From IMG/VR virus record IMGVR_UViG_2913192161_000003, positions 1 to 38,083 of that record: a stretch of DNA of 38,083 bases. One strand, given 5' to 3'. Each line of letters starts with the position of its first letter. The stretch's first letter is position 1. A program made the translations under genes and the position numbers. This stretch comes from a virus. Lineage: Duplodnaviria > Heunggongvirae > Uroviricota > Caudoviricetes. The notes below the pieces were generated by a model that was not told the origin of the DNA, made no database searches, and saw only the letters and a program-made list of their open reading frames with translations. Shown one piece after another: positions 17,272 to 21,894 of this stretch.

Positions 17272-18547
17272 TCTGCAGATCCCCGCGAAGCTCGTTCCTG
17301 TATTCACCGCCGAGAATGTCCGTTACCGCTGCGCTTATGGTGGCCGTGGTTCGGCTAAGACGCGCACCTTTGCTTTGATGAGTGCTGTGCGCGCTTACGA
17401 GAAAGCAGAGGCGGGGATAAGTGGCGTGATTGTGTGTGGCCGCGAATACATGAACTCCCTCGAAGAGTCGAGTATGGAGGAGGTGAAGCAGGCAATCCGC
17501 GCCGTGCCGTGGCTCAATGATTACTTCGACATTGGTGAAAAGTACATCCGCACGAAGAACCGTCGCGTCAGTTACGTGTTCTGTGGCCTGCGGCATAACC
17601 TCGACAGCATCAAGTCGAAGGCGCGCATCCTGCTGGCATGGGTGGACGAAGCCGAATCGGTGTCTGATGTCGCCTGGAAAAAACTTCGTCCGACAGTGCG
17701 AGAGAAAGGATCTGAAATCTGGGTGACGTGGAACCCGGAGAAAGACGGCAGCGCCACTGATAAGCGATTCAGGAAGACCCCGCCGAAGAAATCCATCATC
17801 GTCGAGATGAACTACAACGATAACCCGTGGTTCCCCGATGTGCTGGAAGAGGAGCGACAGGACGACCTGGCAACTCTCGACTACGCCGATTACGCGTGGA
17901 TATGGGAAGGCGCATACCTCGAGAACTCCAACAAGCAGGTGCTGGCGAATCGCTATGTGGTGCAGAGCTTCCCTGATGACCTTTGGGAAAAGGCTGATCG
18001 CCTGCTGTTCGGCGGTGACTTCGGTTTCGCCGAAGATCCGTCAACACTGGTTCGCAACTTCATTCTCGATAACTGCCTGTATATCGAATACGAGGCCTAC
18101 GGCAAGCACGTTGAGCTCGACGACATGTGGAAGTTCTACGCCGGTAAGGATGGGGCGAAACCTCGCCAACTCGAAGAATGGAAAGTTACCGACGAGGCGA
18201 CATTCCCCGGCATACCAGAGGCGCGCCGCTGGCCTATCAAGGCGGATAACTCGCGGCCTGAGACAATCAGCCACATCAAGGCGCAGGGATTCAATATCTC
18301 AGCCGCCAAGAAGTGGCAGGGCAGTGTAGAAGATGGCATCACCTATCTGCGCGGGTTTAAGAAAATCATCATTCACCCGCGCTGCAAAGAGACGGCAAAA
18401 GAAGCCCGACTCTATTCCTACAAAACGGATCGCGTCACCAGTGAGGTGCTGCCGATTATCGAAGACAAAAACAACCACTGTTGGGACGCTGTCCGGTATT
18501 CACTGGATGGGCTGATCCGCAGAAAAGGGAAGGGCATTTTCTCATGA
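17255..18547 (+). CDS. Terminase large subunit
   Basis: Walker A-like YGGRGSAKT, ATPase and nuclease acidic motifs; ORF begins at TTG 17240, first ATG at 17255. Confidence 0.85.
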   Translation: MGATADLQIPAKLVPVFTAENVRYRCAYGGRGSAKTRTFALMSAVRAYEKAEAGISGVIVCGREYMNSLEESSMEEVKQAIRAVPWLNDYFDIGEKYIRTKNRRVSYVFCGLRHNLDSIKSKARILLAWVDEAESVSDVAWKKLRPTVREKGSEIWVTWNPEKDGSATDKRFRKTPPKKSIIVEMNYNDNPWFPDVLEEERQDDLATLDYADYAWIWEGAYLENSNKQVLANRYVVQSFPDDLWEKADRLLFGGDFGFAEDPSTLVRNFILDNCLYIEYEAYGKHVELDDMWKFYAGKDGAKPRQLEEWKVTDEATFPGIPEARRWPIKADNSRPETISHIKAQGFNISAAKKWQGSVEDGITYLRGFKKIIIHPRCKETAKEARLYSYKTDRVTSEVLPIIEDKNNHCWDAVRYSLDGLIRRKGKGIFS

Positions 18548-20109
18548 ACTGGAACTGGCTTAAGTGGTTTCGACCAAAAGCAGCAGTAATTGTTGAAGAG
18601 GCGAAGCCTGAGCCGGAAAAGAAGAAACGAGCAGGCACCTTCTCAACGCACAAGCAACATGCTTCATTCAGCCTGGATGATATCGAGCGCACTGCATTCC
18701 CCGTCAGGGCTGCACGTCCTGTTGATGCATCCGGTAAAGCAATGGATGAGTCGTGCGCTCAATCACCGTCTGCTGGGTATCGCTTCTCAACTATCGGCGG
18801 CGTACCGGACAACATCGTTGGCTGGTTCCTGTCGCAGAGCTTCATCGGTCATCAGCTGTGTGCCGTCATGGCTCAGCAGTGGCTGGTTAACCGTGCATGC
18901 AAAATCCCACCAGAGGACGCCACGCGCAACGGCTGGAAGATAACTGGCGTTGATCCGGAAAAGGTTCAGCGCCTGGAGAAGATCGACCGCAAGCGAGGAA
19001 TCAAACGTCAGGTGCAGGAGTATGCGCGCTTCAATCGGGTATTCGGCATTCGTATTGCCATCTTCTGTGTGGACAGCGACGACCCGAAGTATTACGAGAA
19101 GCCATTCAATATCGACGGTGTGCCAGAGGGTGGTTACCGCGGCATCAGCCAGGTAGACCCGTACTGGTGCGCACCTGAACTGGAAGGTGTGGATGTAACT
19201 GACCCATCGTCAGAGAACTTCTACGAGCCGACATACTGGCGCATAGCCAACAAGCGTTATCACCGGTCACACCTCGTCATCATTCGTTACTCAGAAGTCG
19301 CTGACGTGCTCAAGCCGACGTATCTGTTCGGTGGGCTGCCGTTGCCTCAGCTCATCTGGGAGCGCGTGTATGGCGCTGAGCGGTCGGCGAACGAAGGGCC
19401 GCAGTTGTTGATGTCTAAGCGGCTTAACGTCGTTAAGACTGACCTTGCGGAAGCGATGGCAGACCCTGACAACTTCCTGACGAAAATTCAGGAGTTCGTC
19501 GAACGTCGTGACAACTTCGGTGTGATGCCCATTGGTGACAGTGATGGGTATGAGCAGCACGAAACCTCTCTTGGCGACGTCGACTCAGTAATCATGACCG
19601 AGTATCAGCTCGTCGCGTCGGTTGCGGAGATGCCAGCAACGAAACTCCTCGGCACATCGCCGAAGGGATTCAACCCAACCGGTGATTTCGAGATGTCAGC
19701 TTACCGTGAAACGTTGGCCGGCATTCAGGAGCACAGCGGCACGCCGTTCCTGAATAGACATTACCAGTTGCTGACCAAATCAGAGTTCGGCGAGAGCATG
19801 GATATCGAAGTGGTGTGGAATCCGCTGGACGAACCTACCGAAACCGAGCAGGCGCAAACCGGCCTGGCGAAGGCGCAGACAGCTCAGATTTATCAGGAGC
19901 TGGGTGTGGTTAGCGCGAAACAGAACCAGCAGAAGCTAAAGGATGACGAATCCAGCGGCTACGAGTTTGAGGAGGTAGACGATGGCGGAGAAGAAAACGA
20001 CGGACTTGCAAGAGCAATCGCGGCCGTTCTTCAGCCCCCTGTATCTGGAGCAGCAGTACCAGCGACGGCTCCGACGCCTGGTAAACTGGATGAAAGGCAA
20101 CCTGTCTGA
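18544..20109 (+). CDS. Portal protein
   Basis: 521 aa starting at MNWNW (ATG 18544 overlapping the terminase stop); position and size typical of a portal. Confidence 0.75.
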   Translation: MNWNWLKWFRPKAAVIVEEAKPEPEKKKRAGTFSTHKQHASFSLDDIERTAFPVRAARPVDASGKAMDESCAQSPSAGYRFSTIGGVPDNIVGWFLSQSFIGHQLCAVMAQQWLVNRACKIPPEDATRNGWKITGVDPEKVQRLEKIDRKRGIKRQVQEYARFNRVFGIRIAIFCVDSDDPKYYEKPFNIDGVPEGGYRGISQVDPYWCAPELEGVDVTDPSSENFYEPTYWRIANKRYHRSHLVIIRYSEVADVLKPTYLFGGLPLPQLIWERVYGAERSANEGPQLLMSKRLNVVKTDLAEAMADPDNFLTKIQEFVERRDNFGVMPIGDSDGYEQHETSLGDVDSVIMTEYQLVASVAEMPATKLLGTSPKGFNPTGDFEMSAYRETLAGIQEHSGTPFLNRHYQLLTKSEFGESMDIEVVWNPLDEPTETEQAQTGLAKAQTAQIYQELGVVSAKQNQQKLKDDESSGYEFEEVDDGGEENDGLARAIAAVLQPPVSGAAVPATAPTPGKLDERQPV

Positions 20110-20728
20110 TGAGTTACTGGCAACCAGTGGCCCATCGCTCGACTCAAAACTGACAACACTGTCTGGCAAATACGCCAACCTGTTCCGCGATTACGCCCCC
20201 ACGATGTTTAACCCGGTACTCGACGGCGCTGATAAGTCTACTCAGCGGCAATTCACCGCGCTGAAACTTGACGATGCCGTTAACGCTGATGCTGTGCGCG
20301 GGTACTTCCGTGACGCAGCGCAGAAGAATGCACAACTGATATCGACGTTGCCGACGGACCACATCGAGAGGATTCGAAAGGCTGTGGCCGAGTCGCCTGG
20401 CGATCTGTCCGCGCTGAAAGACATCCTGTCTGATGCCAACGGCAAGCTCGACCGTCGCTCACGAAACATCGCAATGGACCAGACGCGAAAGGCGTACAAC
20501 GACACGGCAATGATGAAGGCCCAGGCAACTGGGGCAACCAAAGGCATCTGGATCCACTCACATCGAGGCCCTGCGCATTCCCGTCCTAAACATGTTAAGG
20601 CGCACGGTGAAGAGTTTGACCTTGCCGTTGGCCTTCCGGTGGGCGATAGCGGTCAGAACGTCATCCCCGGAGAGGAAATTAACTGTCGTTGCACATTCAA
20701 ACTGGTGGTCGACTTTGGAGTGAAATAA
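19982..20728 (+). CDS. Head morphogenesis protein (MuF / SPP1 gp7 family)
   Basis: GAGGAGG RBS before ATG 19982; C-terminal PGEEINCRCT motif; overlaps the portal 3-prime end by 128 nt in another frame. Confidence 0.7.
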   Translation: MAEKKTTDLQEQSRPFFSPLYLEQQYQRRLRRLVNWMKGNLSDELLATSGPSLDSKLTTLSGKYANLFRDYAPTMFNPVLDGADKSTQRQFTALKLDDAVNADAVRGYFRDAAQKNAQLISTLPTDHIERIRKAVAESPGDLSALKDILSDANGKLDRRSRNIAMDQTRKAYNDTAMMKAQATGATKGIWIHSHRGPAHSRPKHVKAHGEEFDLAVGLPVGDSGQNVIPGEEINCRCTFKLVVDFGVK

Positions 20729-21894
20729 TGACAACCGGCGCTAAAGCCCTCGACCGTTCCGCTCGCGTTATCGATGACAACGGCTGGATCAACGTTGAGG
20801 GCAACCCAATTACTAAGGCCGGGATATTCGATTATCTCGGCAGCGAGATCCCCGGCGCGCCAGACCCAGACAGAATTTACCAGGTGTACCGCCCAGCGGA
20901 GGAACTCAGCAGGCCGGAGACGCTGGAATCCTTCAAACTTATTCCCTTTACCAATGGGCATGCATGGCTTGGTACCGAAGGCGTTGATGCTGGCGATGCT
21001 GGTGTCGCCGGAATCGTTGGAGAGAAGGTCTATTTTGACCCTCCTTATCTTCGGGCAAATCTTCGCGTGTTCTCTGATGAGTTGAAGCAGGCTCTGCAAT
21101 CCGGGAAGACCGAGCTATCTCCTGGCTACAAATACGACGTTGACCCAACGCCAGGTGTGTTTGAAGGAATACCGTATCAGTATGTGCAGCGAAATATCCG
21201 CTGCGGAAACCATCTAGCCCTTGTTGATGAGGGCAGAACAGGACCTGACGTCGCAGTGATGGACCAGGCCATAAACCAAAACTCCGACGGAGATAAAACG
21301 ATGACTTTAGAGGAACTGATCGCTGCGCTCGGCAAGCTGGACGCGACGCAGCTTGCTGCTGTCATGGCCGCGCTTCAGCAGATGAACCAGACCGAAGCGA
21401 GTACTGAAACTGCTACTGACGAGGATACCACCGACACCACTACGGCGACGGATGAGGATACCTCGGAAGAAACCACTGCTCAGGATGACGACACTACCAC
21501 CGAGCAGGCTCAGGACGAAGACACTACCGAAGAAAGCAAGGCACAGGATGCGAAGATCGCTGCATTGACCAAGCAGGTGAACACCCTGACCAAGCAGGTT
21601 AAAGCCCAGGACACAGGCGCGCTGCTGAAAGAACTTGGCAAGCGTAACGAACTGGCCAATCGCCTGACTCAGCACATCGGCGCGTTTGCGTGCGACTCCA
21701 TGGATACCGTGGCGGTAGCGAAGTACGGCCTGGAGAAACTCGGCATCAAAGGCATCGCAGCTGGCCATGAAGTTTCAGCCCTGAATGCTGCACTGGCGAT
21801 GAAAGCCGCAACTCCACGCACCATCGTTGCATTCGGTCAGGACGCAGCGCCGACCAAAGACAACGCTGTATCTTCCGCAATCGATGCTCTTTAA
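20728..21894 (+). CDS. Scaffold-like head protein (DUF2213-like), acidic T/D/E-rich repeats and coiled coil
   Basis: ORF 20689..21894; start at ATG 20728 overlapping the upstream stop; sits between portal/MuF and the major capsid gene. Confidence 0.55.
   Translation: MTTGAKALDRSARVIDDNGWINVEGNPITKAGIFDYLGSEIPGAPDPDRIYQVYRPAEELSRPETLESFKLIPFTNGHAWLGTEGVDAGDAGVAGIVGEKVYFDPPYLRANLRVFSDELKQALQSGKTELSPGYKYDVDPTPGVFEGIPYQYVQRNIRCGNHLALVDEGRTGPDVAVMDQAINQNSDGDKTMTLEELIAALGKLDATQLAAVMAALQQMNQTEASTETATDEDTTDTTTATDEDTSEETTAQDDDTTTEQAQDEDTTEESKAQDAKIAALTKQVNTLTKQVKAQDTGALLKELGKRNELANRLTQHIGAFACDSMDTVAVAKYGLEKLGIKGIAAGHEVSALNAALAMKAATPRTIVAFGQDAAPTKDNAVSSAIDAL

What the first reader, a model, noticed from the sequence alone, without database searches (positions are those of the whole stretch)
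19982..20109. 128-nt out-of-frame overlap between the portal and MuF head morphogenesis genes
The MuF gene starts at an ATG with a perfect GAGGAGG RBS located 128 nt before the portal stop codon, so the two proteins are encoded in overlapping frames over more than 40 codons. This is longer than typical phage coupling overlaps and may mean the portal C-terminal tail is dispensable or that the true MuF start is a later in-frame Met (for example 20087).
Basis: seen in the sequence. Interest (0 to 1): 0.25.

Follow-up and report, generated by a model that had tools for sequence, protein, structure and literature searches.

The report
Real portal–MuF gene overlap, 128 nt
In this prophage the head-assembly gene MuF really does start 128 bases inside the end of the portal gene, so both proteins are read from the same DNA in two frames; this is an ordinary kind of phage gene overlap, but automatic annotation routinely cuts 36 residues off MuF.

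Summary
The portal ORF (Pfam Phage_portal_3) ends at TGA 20107-20109. The MuF ORF (Phage_Mu_F) starts at ATG 19982, 6 nt after GAGGAGG (19969-19975). The overlap is 128 nt, with MuF in the +1 frame. One correction: the later in-frame Met is at 20090, not 20087.

The later-start idea is not supported.
- In 11 clade members, MuF codons 19-36 (upstream of Met37) show 25 synonymous and 4 non-synonymous changes (pN/pS 0.054, P≈9e-12).
- The same bases read in the portal frame show 2 and 27.
- These codons encode a motif conserved across the whole MuF family.
- They lie in a confident AlphaFold helix (residues 20-47) that spans Met37.

The last ~24 portal residues are unconstrained in sequence. They look like a by-product of stop-codon loss: most relatives end the portal at or before the motif. 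The new stop does appear to be kept.

Long +1 overlaps (17-150 nt) are common in this portal/MuF family. Public gene calls for close homologs are 212 aa, starting at Met37. Prodigal's 60-bp overlap limit explains many of them.

Verdict: a real but ordinary feature and a new member of a known kind. It matters mainly for annotation.

The parts
18544..20109 (+). Portal gene (521 aa from ATG 18544; the mechanical ORF starts at TTG 18481)
   Evidence: Pfam PF06381 E=6e-87. PDB sequence match to the Pa193/E217 gp19 portal, E~1e-131. Homologs start at the MNW... equivalent. ATGA overlap with the terminase stop.
19969..19975 (+). Shine-Dalgarno GAGGAGG for MuF, made of portal Glu codons (GAG GAG G)
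   Evidence: duplex -13.5 kcal/mol. A purine-rich SD-like element is kept in all clade members, -6 to -13.5 kcal/mol.
19976..19978 (+). TAG stop in the MuF frame, which makes ATG 19982 the first possible start
19982..20728 (+). MuF (SPP1 gp7-type head morphogenesis) gene, 248 aa
   Evidence: PF04233 36.9 bits against a 29.6 cut-off. phrog_324 'head morphogenesis' E=5e-39, matching residues 10-246. AF2 pLDDT 83, pTM 0.78.
19982..20109 (+). The 128-nt dual-coding overlap (MuF aa 1-42 plus 2 nt; portal aa 480-521 in 521-aa numbering)
19982..20035 (+). Proximal part of the overlap: MuF leader aa 1-18 and portal 'DGGEENDGLARAIAAVLQ'. Possible dual constraint.
   Evidence: MuF-frame pN/pS 0.14, P=4e-4. 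Synonymous rate is lowered in group A (0.12 against 0.38-0.50), and the portal frame keeps 'RLAxxIAAVLQP'.
20036..20109 (+). Distal part of the overlap: the conserved MuF N-terminal helix motif PLYLEQQYQRRLRRLVNWM..., read in the portal frame as an unconstrained P/A/T/G-rich tail
   Evidence: MuF pN/pS 0.05-0.06; portal-frame pN/pS 6-7.5. Family motif. Helix 20-47 with pLDDT ~92.
20090..20092 (+). ATG of Met37: a conserved internal residue, and the start chosen by automatic gene callers (212-aa calls)
   Evidence: SD only -2.8 kcal/mol.
20107..20112 (+). Portal stop TGA (third base of MuF codon 42 plus GA of Asp43), followed by a second TGA
   Evidence: The third base of codon 42 is T in 10 of 10 sequences although the residue varies Ser/Ala/Thr; the background T-ending fraction is 0.21.
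20726..20730 (+). TAATG junction between MuF and the next gene (DUF2213/Pa193_gp24 homolog). This is the ordinary 1-nt coupling overlap, given for contrast.

Best explanation
This is a genuine dual-coding overlap. Ribosomes start MuF at ATG 19982, using a strong SD (GAGGAGG) that is itself made of Glu codons in the portal's acidic C-terminal linker. Other ribosomes translating the portal continue in the 0 frame for 42 more codons to TGA 20109. MuF is the frame that selection protects. Its residues 19-47 form the first conserved helix of the MuF fold, preceded by a short disordered leader. The portal residues encoded over that helix (QPPVSGAAVPATAPTPGKLDERQPV) are a sequence-unconstrained tail. 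The tail most likely arose when the portal stop used by most relatives was lost. In the largest clade that stop is a TAA formed by the Pro-Asn codons CCT AAY at the start of the MuF motif. The window clade has Pro-Leu there, so the portal frame runs on to the next stop, formed by xxT GAY at MuF codons 42-43, and that stop now seems to be kept. The portal C-terminus points into the capsid. It tolerates unrelated extensions in relatives, such as a 260-aa pyrophosphatase domain in Pbunavirus, so such a tail is tolerated. Shown here: both frames are open; the ATG and SD are conserved; the MuF frame is under purifying selection; the portal frame lacks constraint over the distal part. Inferred: actual translation of both products, the stop-loss history, and the harmlessness of the tail.
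For: Geometry and SD. Annotated relatives also overlap: Yersinia phage P744 113 nt; Erwinia phage RF1 56 nt as annotated, or 146 nt from the homologous ATG. Window versus near-identical prophages: 14 of 14 differences in the overlap are MuF-synonymous and portal-non-synonymous, at a density similar to single-coding flanks. Eleven clade members all keep the ATG, the SD and SRPF[FY]SPL[YH]LEQxYQR[RK]LRxLVxWMK. Five non-overlapping pairs: codons 19-36 show 25 syn / 4 nonsyn, pN/pS 0.054, P=9e-12; the portal frame shows 2 syn / 27 nonsyn; codons 2-18 have pN/pS 0.14, P=4e-4. The motif is conserved in 27 MuF clusters down to ~25% identity. Lineages with no overlap start MuF 13 residues or more before the motif. 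PHROG 324 matches from residue 10. AF2 helix 20-47, pLDDT ~92. Portal stops sit at or before the motif in other clades: TAA in CCT-AAY in 49 loci. An independent deep overlap occurs in L081. Codon-42 T is invariant. Portal homology to solved Pa193/E217 gp19 ends at the acidic linker. The Pa193 C-terminal 529-765 is invisible in the virion map (PMC11456595). Long same-strand overlaps are mostly phase 1 and arise by 3' elongation to the next stop (PMC3887535).
Against: There is no direct expression evidence (no proteomics or ribosome profiling) for either product in this clade. pN/pS estimates in overlapping frames are biased by the other frame, although the direction here is unambiguous. The simulation of whether the portal frame stays open is not significant for the window itself (P=0.285). 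It is only borderline in relatives (0.04-0.09), so a selected role for tail length is not established. The N-terminal part of the AF2 alignment was covered only by 11 distant sequences. All database gene calls for close homologs start at Met37. Prodigal's 60-bp overlap cap explains such calls where that program was used; I did not establish the rule behind NCBI's call.
Confidence: 0.85

Rival explanations
1. MuF actually starts at Met37 (ATG 20090), as in public annotations. The overlap is then only 20 nt, and the upstream 36 codons are an untranslated chance extension of the ORF.
For: All 12 close homologs in the protein database, including an NCBI Citrobacter gillenii entry, are called as 212 aa. 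ATG 20090 lies 20 nt before the portal stop, a distance at which termination-reinitiation is conceivable (my own knowledge).
Against: pN/pS is 0.054 (P=9e-12) for codons 19-36 and 0.14 for codons 2-18. The family motif and the PHROG match lie upstream of Met37. Met37 sits inside a confident helix. Its SD is weak, -2.8 against -13.5 kcal/mol. Prodigal cannot call same-strand overlaps longer than 60 bp. A minor extra isoform starting at Met37 cannot be excluded.
Confidence: 0.05
2. The overlap is a selected regulatory device. Portal-translating ribosomes pass over the MuF initiation site. They either occlude it or unfold it, and so set the MuF:portal ratio. This adds to the best explanation rather than replacing it.
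For: The +1 overlap of portal and MuF recurs in most of 27 clusters at ~25% portal identity. The portal stop appears to be maintained. In SPP1 the MuF homolog gp7 is present at only 1-2 copies per capsid, bound to the portal (PMC5576092).
Against: Lineages with 1-nt or no overlap exist and are viable phages: Pbunavirus, L045, L059, L096. There is no special RNA structure around the SD (z=-0.83). Overlap length varies from 17 to 150 nt. Composition alone explains the recurrence: an acidic GAN-rich tail is stop-free and K/R/T-rich in the +1 frame.
Confidence: 0.15
3. A programmed +1 frameshift within the overlap makes a portal-MuF fusion protein.
For: MuF is in the +1 frame in nearly all lineages. 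A PHROG annotated 'portal protein' (phrog_2662) matches the MuF C-terminal domain at its own C-terminus, hinting that fusions exist in other phages.
Against: There is no slippery heptamer and no prfB-like +1 motif in 19940-20109. No Rfam element was found. MuF has its own strong SD and ATG, with an in-frame stop just upstream. My test case for a fusion (Pbunavirus ORF17) turned out to be portal plus pyrophosphatase, not MuF.
Confidence: 0.02
4. The long portal tail is an assembly or sequencing frameshift artefact, for example at the C5 run 20035-20039, and the portal really ends earlier.
For: A C5 homopolymer lies in the overlap.
Against: The same frame relationship and the same stop position are found in 11 independent assemblies. 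These include ones with CCG in place of the C run and two sequenced phage isolates. There is no stop in the portal frame before 20107.
Confidence: 0.02

Closest known systems
Long phase-1 same-strand gene overlaps created by 3' elongation of the upstream gene to the next stop (Fonseca et al. 2013, PMC3887535, and the work it cites)
   Same: Same strand, +1 phase and well over 60 nt. The upstream gene's stop differs between clades and always falls at a chance xxT-RRx codon pair of the downstream gene. The extension is unconstrained in sequence.
   Different: Here the overlap reaches into a conserved structural helix of the downstream protein. The proximal part may carry constraint in both frames. 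An overlap of some length is shared by a whole phage head-module family.
SPP1 gp6 (portal) / gp7 (MuF) gene pair and the MuF superfamily context (Jamet et al. 2017, PMC5576092)
   Same: The muf gene lies immediately downstream of the portal gene in the packaging module, and it is a Pfam PF04233 member.
   Different: The portal here is the PF06381 (E217/Pa193 gp19) type, not the SPP1 type. I found no description of a long portal/MuF overlap in the papers searched.
Pbunavirus (E217, Pa193, 14-1) head module: portal gp19, MuF, DUF2213/Pa193_gp24, cement protein, major capsid protein
   Same: Same gene order and the same families. The portal matches gp19 at E~1e-131 up to the 'SGY' motif and acidic linker.
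   Different: The Pbunavirus portal carries a ~30-residue barrel helix plus a 240-aa pyrophosphatase domain after the linker, and MuF starts at the portal stop (GTGATG, 1-nt overlap). The window portal has only a 46-aa tail, 42 residues of which are overlapped by MuF.
Short translational-coupling overlaps (ATGA, TAATG)
   Same: The flanking junctions in this operon are of this type: terminase/portal ATGA at 18544-18547 and MuF/next gene TAATG at 20726-20730.
   Different: The portal/MuF junction is 128 nt and MuF has its own strong SD. Termination-reinitiation at the real start is therefore not possible.

Membership tests
Phage_Mu_F / SPP1 gp7-type head morphogenesis protein | Sequence match to the PF04233 profile above the curated cut-off | tested here: met
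   36.9 bits against 29.6, residues 151-239. phrog_324 'head morphogenesis' E=5e-39, residues 10-246.
Phage_Mu_F / SPP1 gp7-type head morphogenesis protein | Gene immediately downstream of the portal gene in the packaging module | tested here: met
   Order is terminase, portal, MuF, DUF2213, cement, major capsid. This context is described as typical in PMC5576092.
Phage_Mu_F / SPP1 gp7-type head morphogenesis protein | Low-copy virion protein bound to the portal | not testable with these tools
   Needs virion proteomics. The Pa193 paper lists gp20, together with gp21, gp24, gp27 and gp31, as ORFs detected by LC-MS in the virion. That gp20 is the MuF homolog is my inference from the gene order in phage 14-1, where MuF follows the portal; I did not check it.
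PF06381 portal (E217/Pa193 gp19 type) | Profile match and homology to a solved dodecameric portal | tested here: met
   PF06381 E=6e-87. 9b41 and 8fvh E~1e-131 over residues 66-490.
Genuine dual-coding same-strand overlap | Both reading frames open, each belonging to a gene with independent homologs | tested here: met
Genuine dual-coding same-strand overlap | The downstream gene's start lies upstream of the upstream gene's stop, supported by conservation and not only by ORF length | tested here: met
   ATG and SD kept in 11 of 11 clade members. pN/pS 0.054 for codons 19-36, P=9e-12. Family motif.
Genuine dual-coding same-strand overlap | Purifying selection on both frames within the overlap | tested here: inconclusive
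   MuF frame: met. Portal frame: not met in the distal 74 nt (pN/pS 6-7.5). It is possible in the proximal 54 nt, where the synonymous rate is lowered in one group only and 'RLAxxIAAVLQP' is kept. The portal stop position is kept.
Genuine dual-coding same-strand overlap | Both products detected experimentally | not testable with these tools
   No proteomic or ribosome-profiling data were found for this clade.
Programmed ribosomal frameshift site | Slippery sequence (X XXY YYZ, or a +1 motif with a hungry or stop codon) plus a stimulator | tested here: not met
   No such motifs in 19940-20109. No Rfam hit. Fold z-score -0.83.
Translational coupling by overlapping stop/start (ATGA/TAATG) | Start codon within a few nt of the upstream stop | tested here: not met
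   The real start is 125 nt upstream of the portal stop. Only the internal Met37 ATG is near it, at 20 nt.

The most novel reading that the evidence does not exclude
The overlap is not just tolerated. It may be a selected, family-wide arrangement in which the portal's acidic C-terminal tail and the N-terminal leader of MuF are co-encoded in frames 0 and +1. The leader is basic in most lineages, whether or not there is an overlap. The two segments might bind each other inside the procapsid to recruit MuF to the portal. The shared DNA and the passage of portal ribosomes over the MuF start would then fix co-inheritance and stoichiometry. Acidic GAN codons read in the +1 frame give K/R/T codons, which would explain why the overlap is always in phase +1.
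Probability: 0.08. Interest if true: 0.45.

Novelty: new member of a known kind. Interest (0 to 1): 0.2.

Why it matters
The main value is practical. The 12 close homologs returned by the protein-database search (77-99% identical) are all recorded 36 residues too short, lacking half of the protein's first conserved helix. Prodigal forbids same-strand overlaps longer than 60 bp, which accounts for many such calls. Structure prediction, family profiles and expression constructs built from those entries inherit the truncation. The case is also a clean, well-replicated example of asymmetric constraint in an overlap (one frame protected, the other free-running). It shows how loss of a stop embedded in a conserved codon pair lengthens an overlap. 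It does not open a new biological question.

Tried and rejected
1. Near-identity DNA searches in phage and E. coli genome collections found nothing. Only distant matches appeared.
2. I suspected that the 765-aa Pbunavirus ORF17 was a portal-MuF fusion, which would have pointed to frameshifting or gene fission. Pfam shows portal plus inorganic pyrophosphatase, with MuF as a separate ORF18. Rejected.
3. I took L045, L059 and L096 (portal stop immediately before the MuF ATG) for natural tail-less frameshift variants. Alignment shows that they carry a different portal C-terminal module. They are still useful as no-overlap calibrators for the MuF start.
4. RNA structure around the SD and ATG is not different from shuffles, and there is no Rfam family.
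5. No slippery or +1 frameshift motifs.
6. A synonymous-codon simulation asked whether the portal frame stays open more than chance. It was not significant for the window (0.285) and borderline in relatives.
7. PDB sequence and Foldseek searches with MuF found no meaningful match, only generic helical bundles.
8. The codon-position test in the large L007 clade was uninformative. Variation is even across positions in the acidic-tail/basic-leader overlap, and the upstream alignments are disturbed by indels.
9. The paper on Yersinia phage P744 was located but not read for proteomics of the MuF N-terminus.

Full report
**1. What is in the sequence**

- The portal-frame ORF ends at TGA 20107-20109. 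A second TGA follows at 20110-20112.
- In the +1 frame an ORF starts at ATG 19982 and runs to TAA 20726-20728.
- The ATG is preceded by GAGGAGG at 19969-19975 with a 6-nt spacer. The computed duplex with the 16S 3' end is -13.5 kcal/mol.
- TAG 19976-19978 in the same frame means no earlier start is possible.
- The shared stretch is 19982-20109, or 128 nt.
- Pfam identifies the two products as Phage_portal_3 (E=6e-87) and Phage_Mu_F (36.9 bits; cut-off 29.6). They sit in a module of terminase, portal, MuF, DUF2213, cement protein and major capsid protein.
- Two details of the finding need correction.
  - The later in-frame Met is ATG 20090 (Met37). Position 20087 is the Trp36 codon.
  - The portal probably starts at ATG 18544, which overlaps the terminase stop as ATGA. 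That gives 521 aa.
- The other junctions of the operon are ordinary 4-nt and 1-nt overlaps. The portal/MuF junction is therefore the odd one out.

**2. Origin and relatives**

- The window is a prophage of Escherichia sp. E1V33: locus L003 has MuF 99% identical.
- No close phage or E. coli genome record exists.
- The nearest isolates are Yersinia phage P744 and Erwinia phage RF1.
  - P744 is annotated with a 113-nt portal/MuF overlap.
  - RF1 is annotated with 56 nt. Its homologous ATG would give 146 nt.
- The portal matches the solved gp19 portals of Pseudomonas phages Pa193 and E217 at E~1e-131. The homology ends at the 'SGY' motif and acidic linker, which is where the overlap begins.

**3. 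Which start is real**

Public protein databases hold 12 close homologs (77-99% identical), all called as 212 aa. That length corresponds to a start at the Met37 equivalent. I fetched the DNA of seven of them, which with the window, L003, L033 and L034 makes 11 clade members.

- All 11 keep an ATG with an SD-like element 37-39 codons upstream of Met37.
- All 11 keep the sequence SRPF[FY]SPL[YH]LEQxYQR[RK]LRxLVxWMK.
- The window against its two nearest relatives shows 14 differences in the overlap. All 14 are synonymous in the MuF frame and non-synonymous in the portal frame. Their density is similar to that in single-coding flanks.
- In five non-overlapping sequence pairs:

| Region | Frame | Synonymous | Non-synonymous | pN/pS | P |
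|---|---|---|---|---|---|
| MuF codons 19-36 | MuF | 25 | 4 | 0.054 | 9e-12 |
| Same bases | portal | 2 | 27 | ~6 | n/a |
| MuF codons 2-18 | MuF | 9 | 5 | 0.14 | 4e-4 |

- Codons 19-36 are coding only if the start lies upstream of Met37.
- The segment is the window's version of a motif (RPNAGVEAWYRRxLxxxIxEM) found at the N-terminus of MuF proteins in 27 clusters, down to ~25% identity.
- The Met aligned with Met37 is a conserved internal residue of that motif.
- Lineages with no overlap at all start MuF 13 or more residues before the motif. These are L045, L059 and L096, which have a different portal C-terminal module, and Pbunavirus 14-1.
- PHROG 324 matches MuF from residue 10.
- An AlphaFold2 model (pLDDT 83, pTM 0.78) has residues 1-11 disordered. 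Residues 20-47 form a single helix at pLDDT ~92 that spans Met37.
- Prodigal allows at most 60 bp of same-strand overlap (PMC2848648). It cannot call this start, which explains the 212-aa entries made with it.

I conclude that the later-start alternative is wrong as the main start. A minor Met37 isoform cannot be excluded.

**4. What the portal tail is**

The overlap falls into two parts.

*Distal 74 nt (MuF codons 19-43).*
- MuF-frame pN/pS is 0.06 and portal-frame pN/pS is about 7.5.
- The portal residues QPPVSGAAVPATAPTPGKLDERQPV change freely between near-identical prophages.
- Apparent portal motifs such as 'LDE' or 'VDE' are shadows of the conserved MuF Trp-Met codons.

*Proximal 54 nt (MuF leader; portal DGGEENDGLARAIAAVLQ).*
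- Variation is lower. In one group pS is 0.12, against 0.38-0.50 elsewhere.
- The portal frame keeps 'RLAxxIAAVLQP'.
- This segment sits where Pbunavirus portals have the start of a ~30-residue barrel helix. Some constraint on both frames is therefore possible but not proven.

*The portal stop.*
- The portal stop itself seems to be maintained. MuF codon 42 is TCT, GCT or ACT. The residue varies, but the third base is T in 10 of 10 sequences, against a background T-ending fraction of 0.21.
- A synonymous-codon simulation gives P=0.285 that the portal frame stays open this far by chance in the window. The values for relatives are 0.04-0.09.
- Tail length as such is therefore not shown to be selected.

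**5. How it arose (inference)**

- In 49 loci of the largest related clade the portal stop is a TAA formed by CCT-AAY. These are the Pro-Asn codons that open the MuF motif.
- In other clades the stop lies 1-28 nt before the motif, or 17 nt into it.
- The window clade has Pro-Leu (CCC CTG) at that position. The portal frame therefore reads on for 74 nt into the motif (80 nt in P744, 101 nt in RF1), as far as the next xxT-GAY pair.
- An unrelated lineage, L081, independently has a 125-128-nt overlap of the same kind.
- This matches the published model. Long same-strand overlaps are mostly phase 1 and arise when the upstream gene elongates to the next stop (PMC3887535).
- The +1 phase is favoured by composition. 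An acidic GAN-rich tail read in the +1 frame gives K/R/T/M codons and few stops, and its GAG GAG codons provide the SD.
- Portal C-termini in this family tolerate unrelated additions. One example is a pyrophosphatase domain in Pbunavirus that is invisible in the virion map.

**6. Family-wide picture**

- Across about 100 loci the MuF frame is +1 relative to the portal in most lineages. Likely overlaps range from 17 to about 150 nt.
- MuF leaders are basic (+4 to +9) whether or not they overlap the portal. Portal tails are often acidic, also without overlap. Both are therefore intrinsic features.
- The window clade is unusual in having a neutral leader.
- Whether tail and leader interact is speculation.

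**7. Rivals**

- A regulatory role, with portal ribosomes passing over the MuF start, is possible. There is no specific support for it, and no special RNA fold.
- Programmed frameshifting is unlikely: no slippery motif, no Rfam element, and MuF has its own SD and ATG.
- An assembly artefact is excluded by 11 independent assemblies and two phage isolates.

**8. Verdict**

The overlap is real and the upstream start is correct. The later-Met idea is wrong. The portal tail is largely an unconstrained by-product whose end point is kept. This is a new, well-supported member of a known kind of overlap. Its main consequence is a systematic annotation error. Interest is low.

Noticed in passing
window 18481-18547: The mechanical portal ORF starts at TTG 18481, but homologs begin at the MNW... 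equivalent. ATG 18544 overlaps the terminase stop as ATGA (18544-18547), so the portal is probably 521 aa, not 542.
   Followed up: partly
L114-L120 (gene calls) and proteins P0001-P0012: All 12 close MuF homologs in the public protein collection, including an NCBI Citrobacter gillenii entry, are called as 212 aa, starting at the Met37 equivalent. This is a systematic 36-residue N-terminal truncation.
   Followed up: yes
L113:2251-4548 (Pseudomonas phage 14-1 ORF17): The Pbunavirus portal is 765 aa because it carries a C-terminal inorganic pyrophosphatase domain (PF18823, E=4e-42). The Pa193 cryo-EM paper reports no density for residues 529-765. The role of an enzyme domain on the capsid-interior end of a portal is not explained there.
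   Followed up: partly
window 19982-20728 (protein residues 93-244): A PHROG annotated 'portal protein' (phrog_2662, 717 positions) matches the MuF C-terminal domain at its own positions 555-710. This suggests that true portal-MuF fusion proteins exist in other phages.
   Followed up: no
L045, L059, L096 (portal C-termini upstream of MuF): These relatives share more than 70% identical MuF with overlap-bearing loci. Their portals end in a different module (…AEHSYPEYRAHLSLKYDP…FKPIKE*) with no overlap. This indicates recombination at the portal/MuF boundary.
   Followed up: partly
window 20728-21894: The DUF2213/Pa193_gp24 homolog has a long Thr/Asp/Glu-rich low-complexity stretch (…TETATDEDTTDTTTATDEDTSEETTAQDDDTTTEQAQDEDTTEE…) between its conserved N-terminal domain and a C-terminal helical part.
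   Followed up: no
L003 versus window (portal against MuF): The E1V33 genome copy has MuF 99% identical to the window but the portal only ~90% (best segment). This hints at mosaicism within the head module.
   Followed up: no
L017 and L027 (GC-rich metagenome-assembled genomes), L108: In L017 and L027 the portal or MuF alternative frames stay open for 600-950 nt, probably a GC-content effect. L108 has a broken MuF frame, either a pseudogene or an assembly error.
   Followed up: no
MuF N-termini across clusters: MuF leaders before the conserved motif are strongly basic (+4 to +9) in most lineages, but neutral or slightly acidic in the window, P744 and RF1 clade, which has the deepest overlap.
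   Followed up: partly
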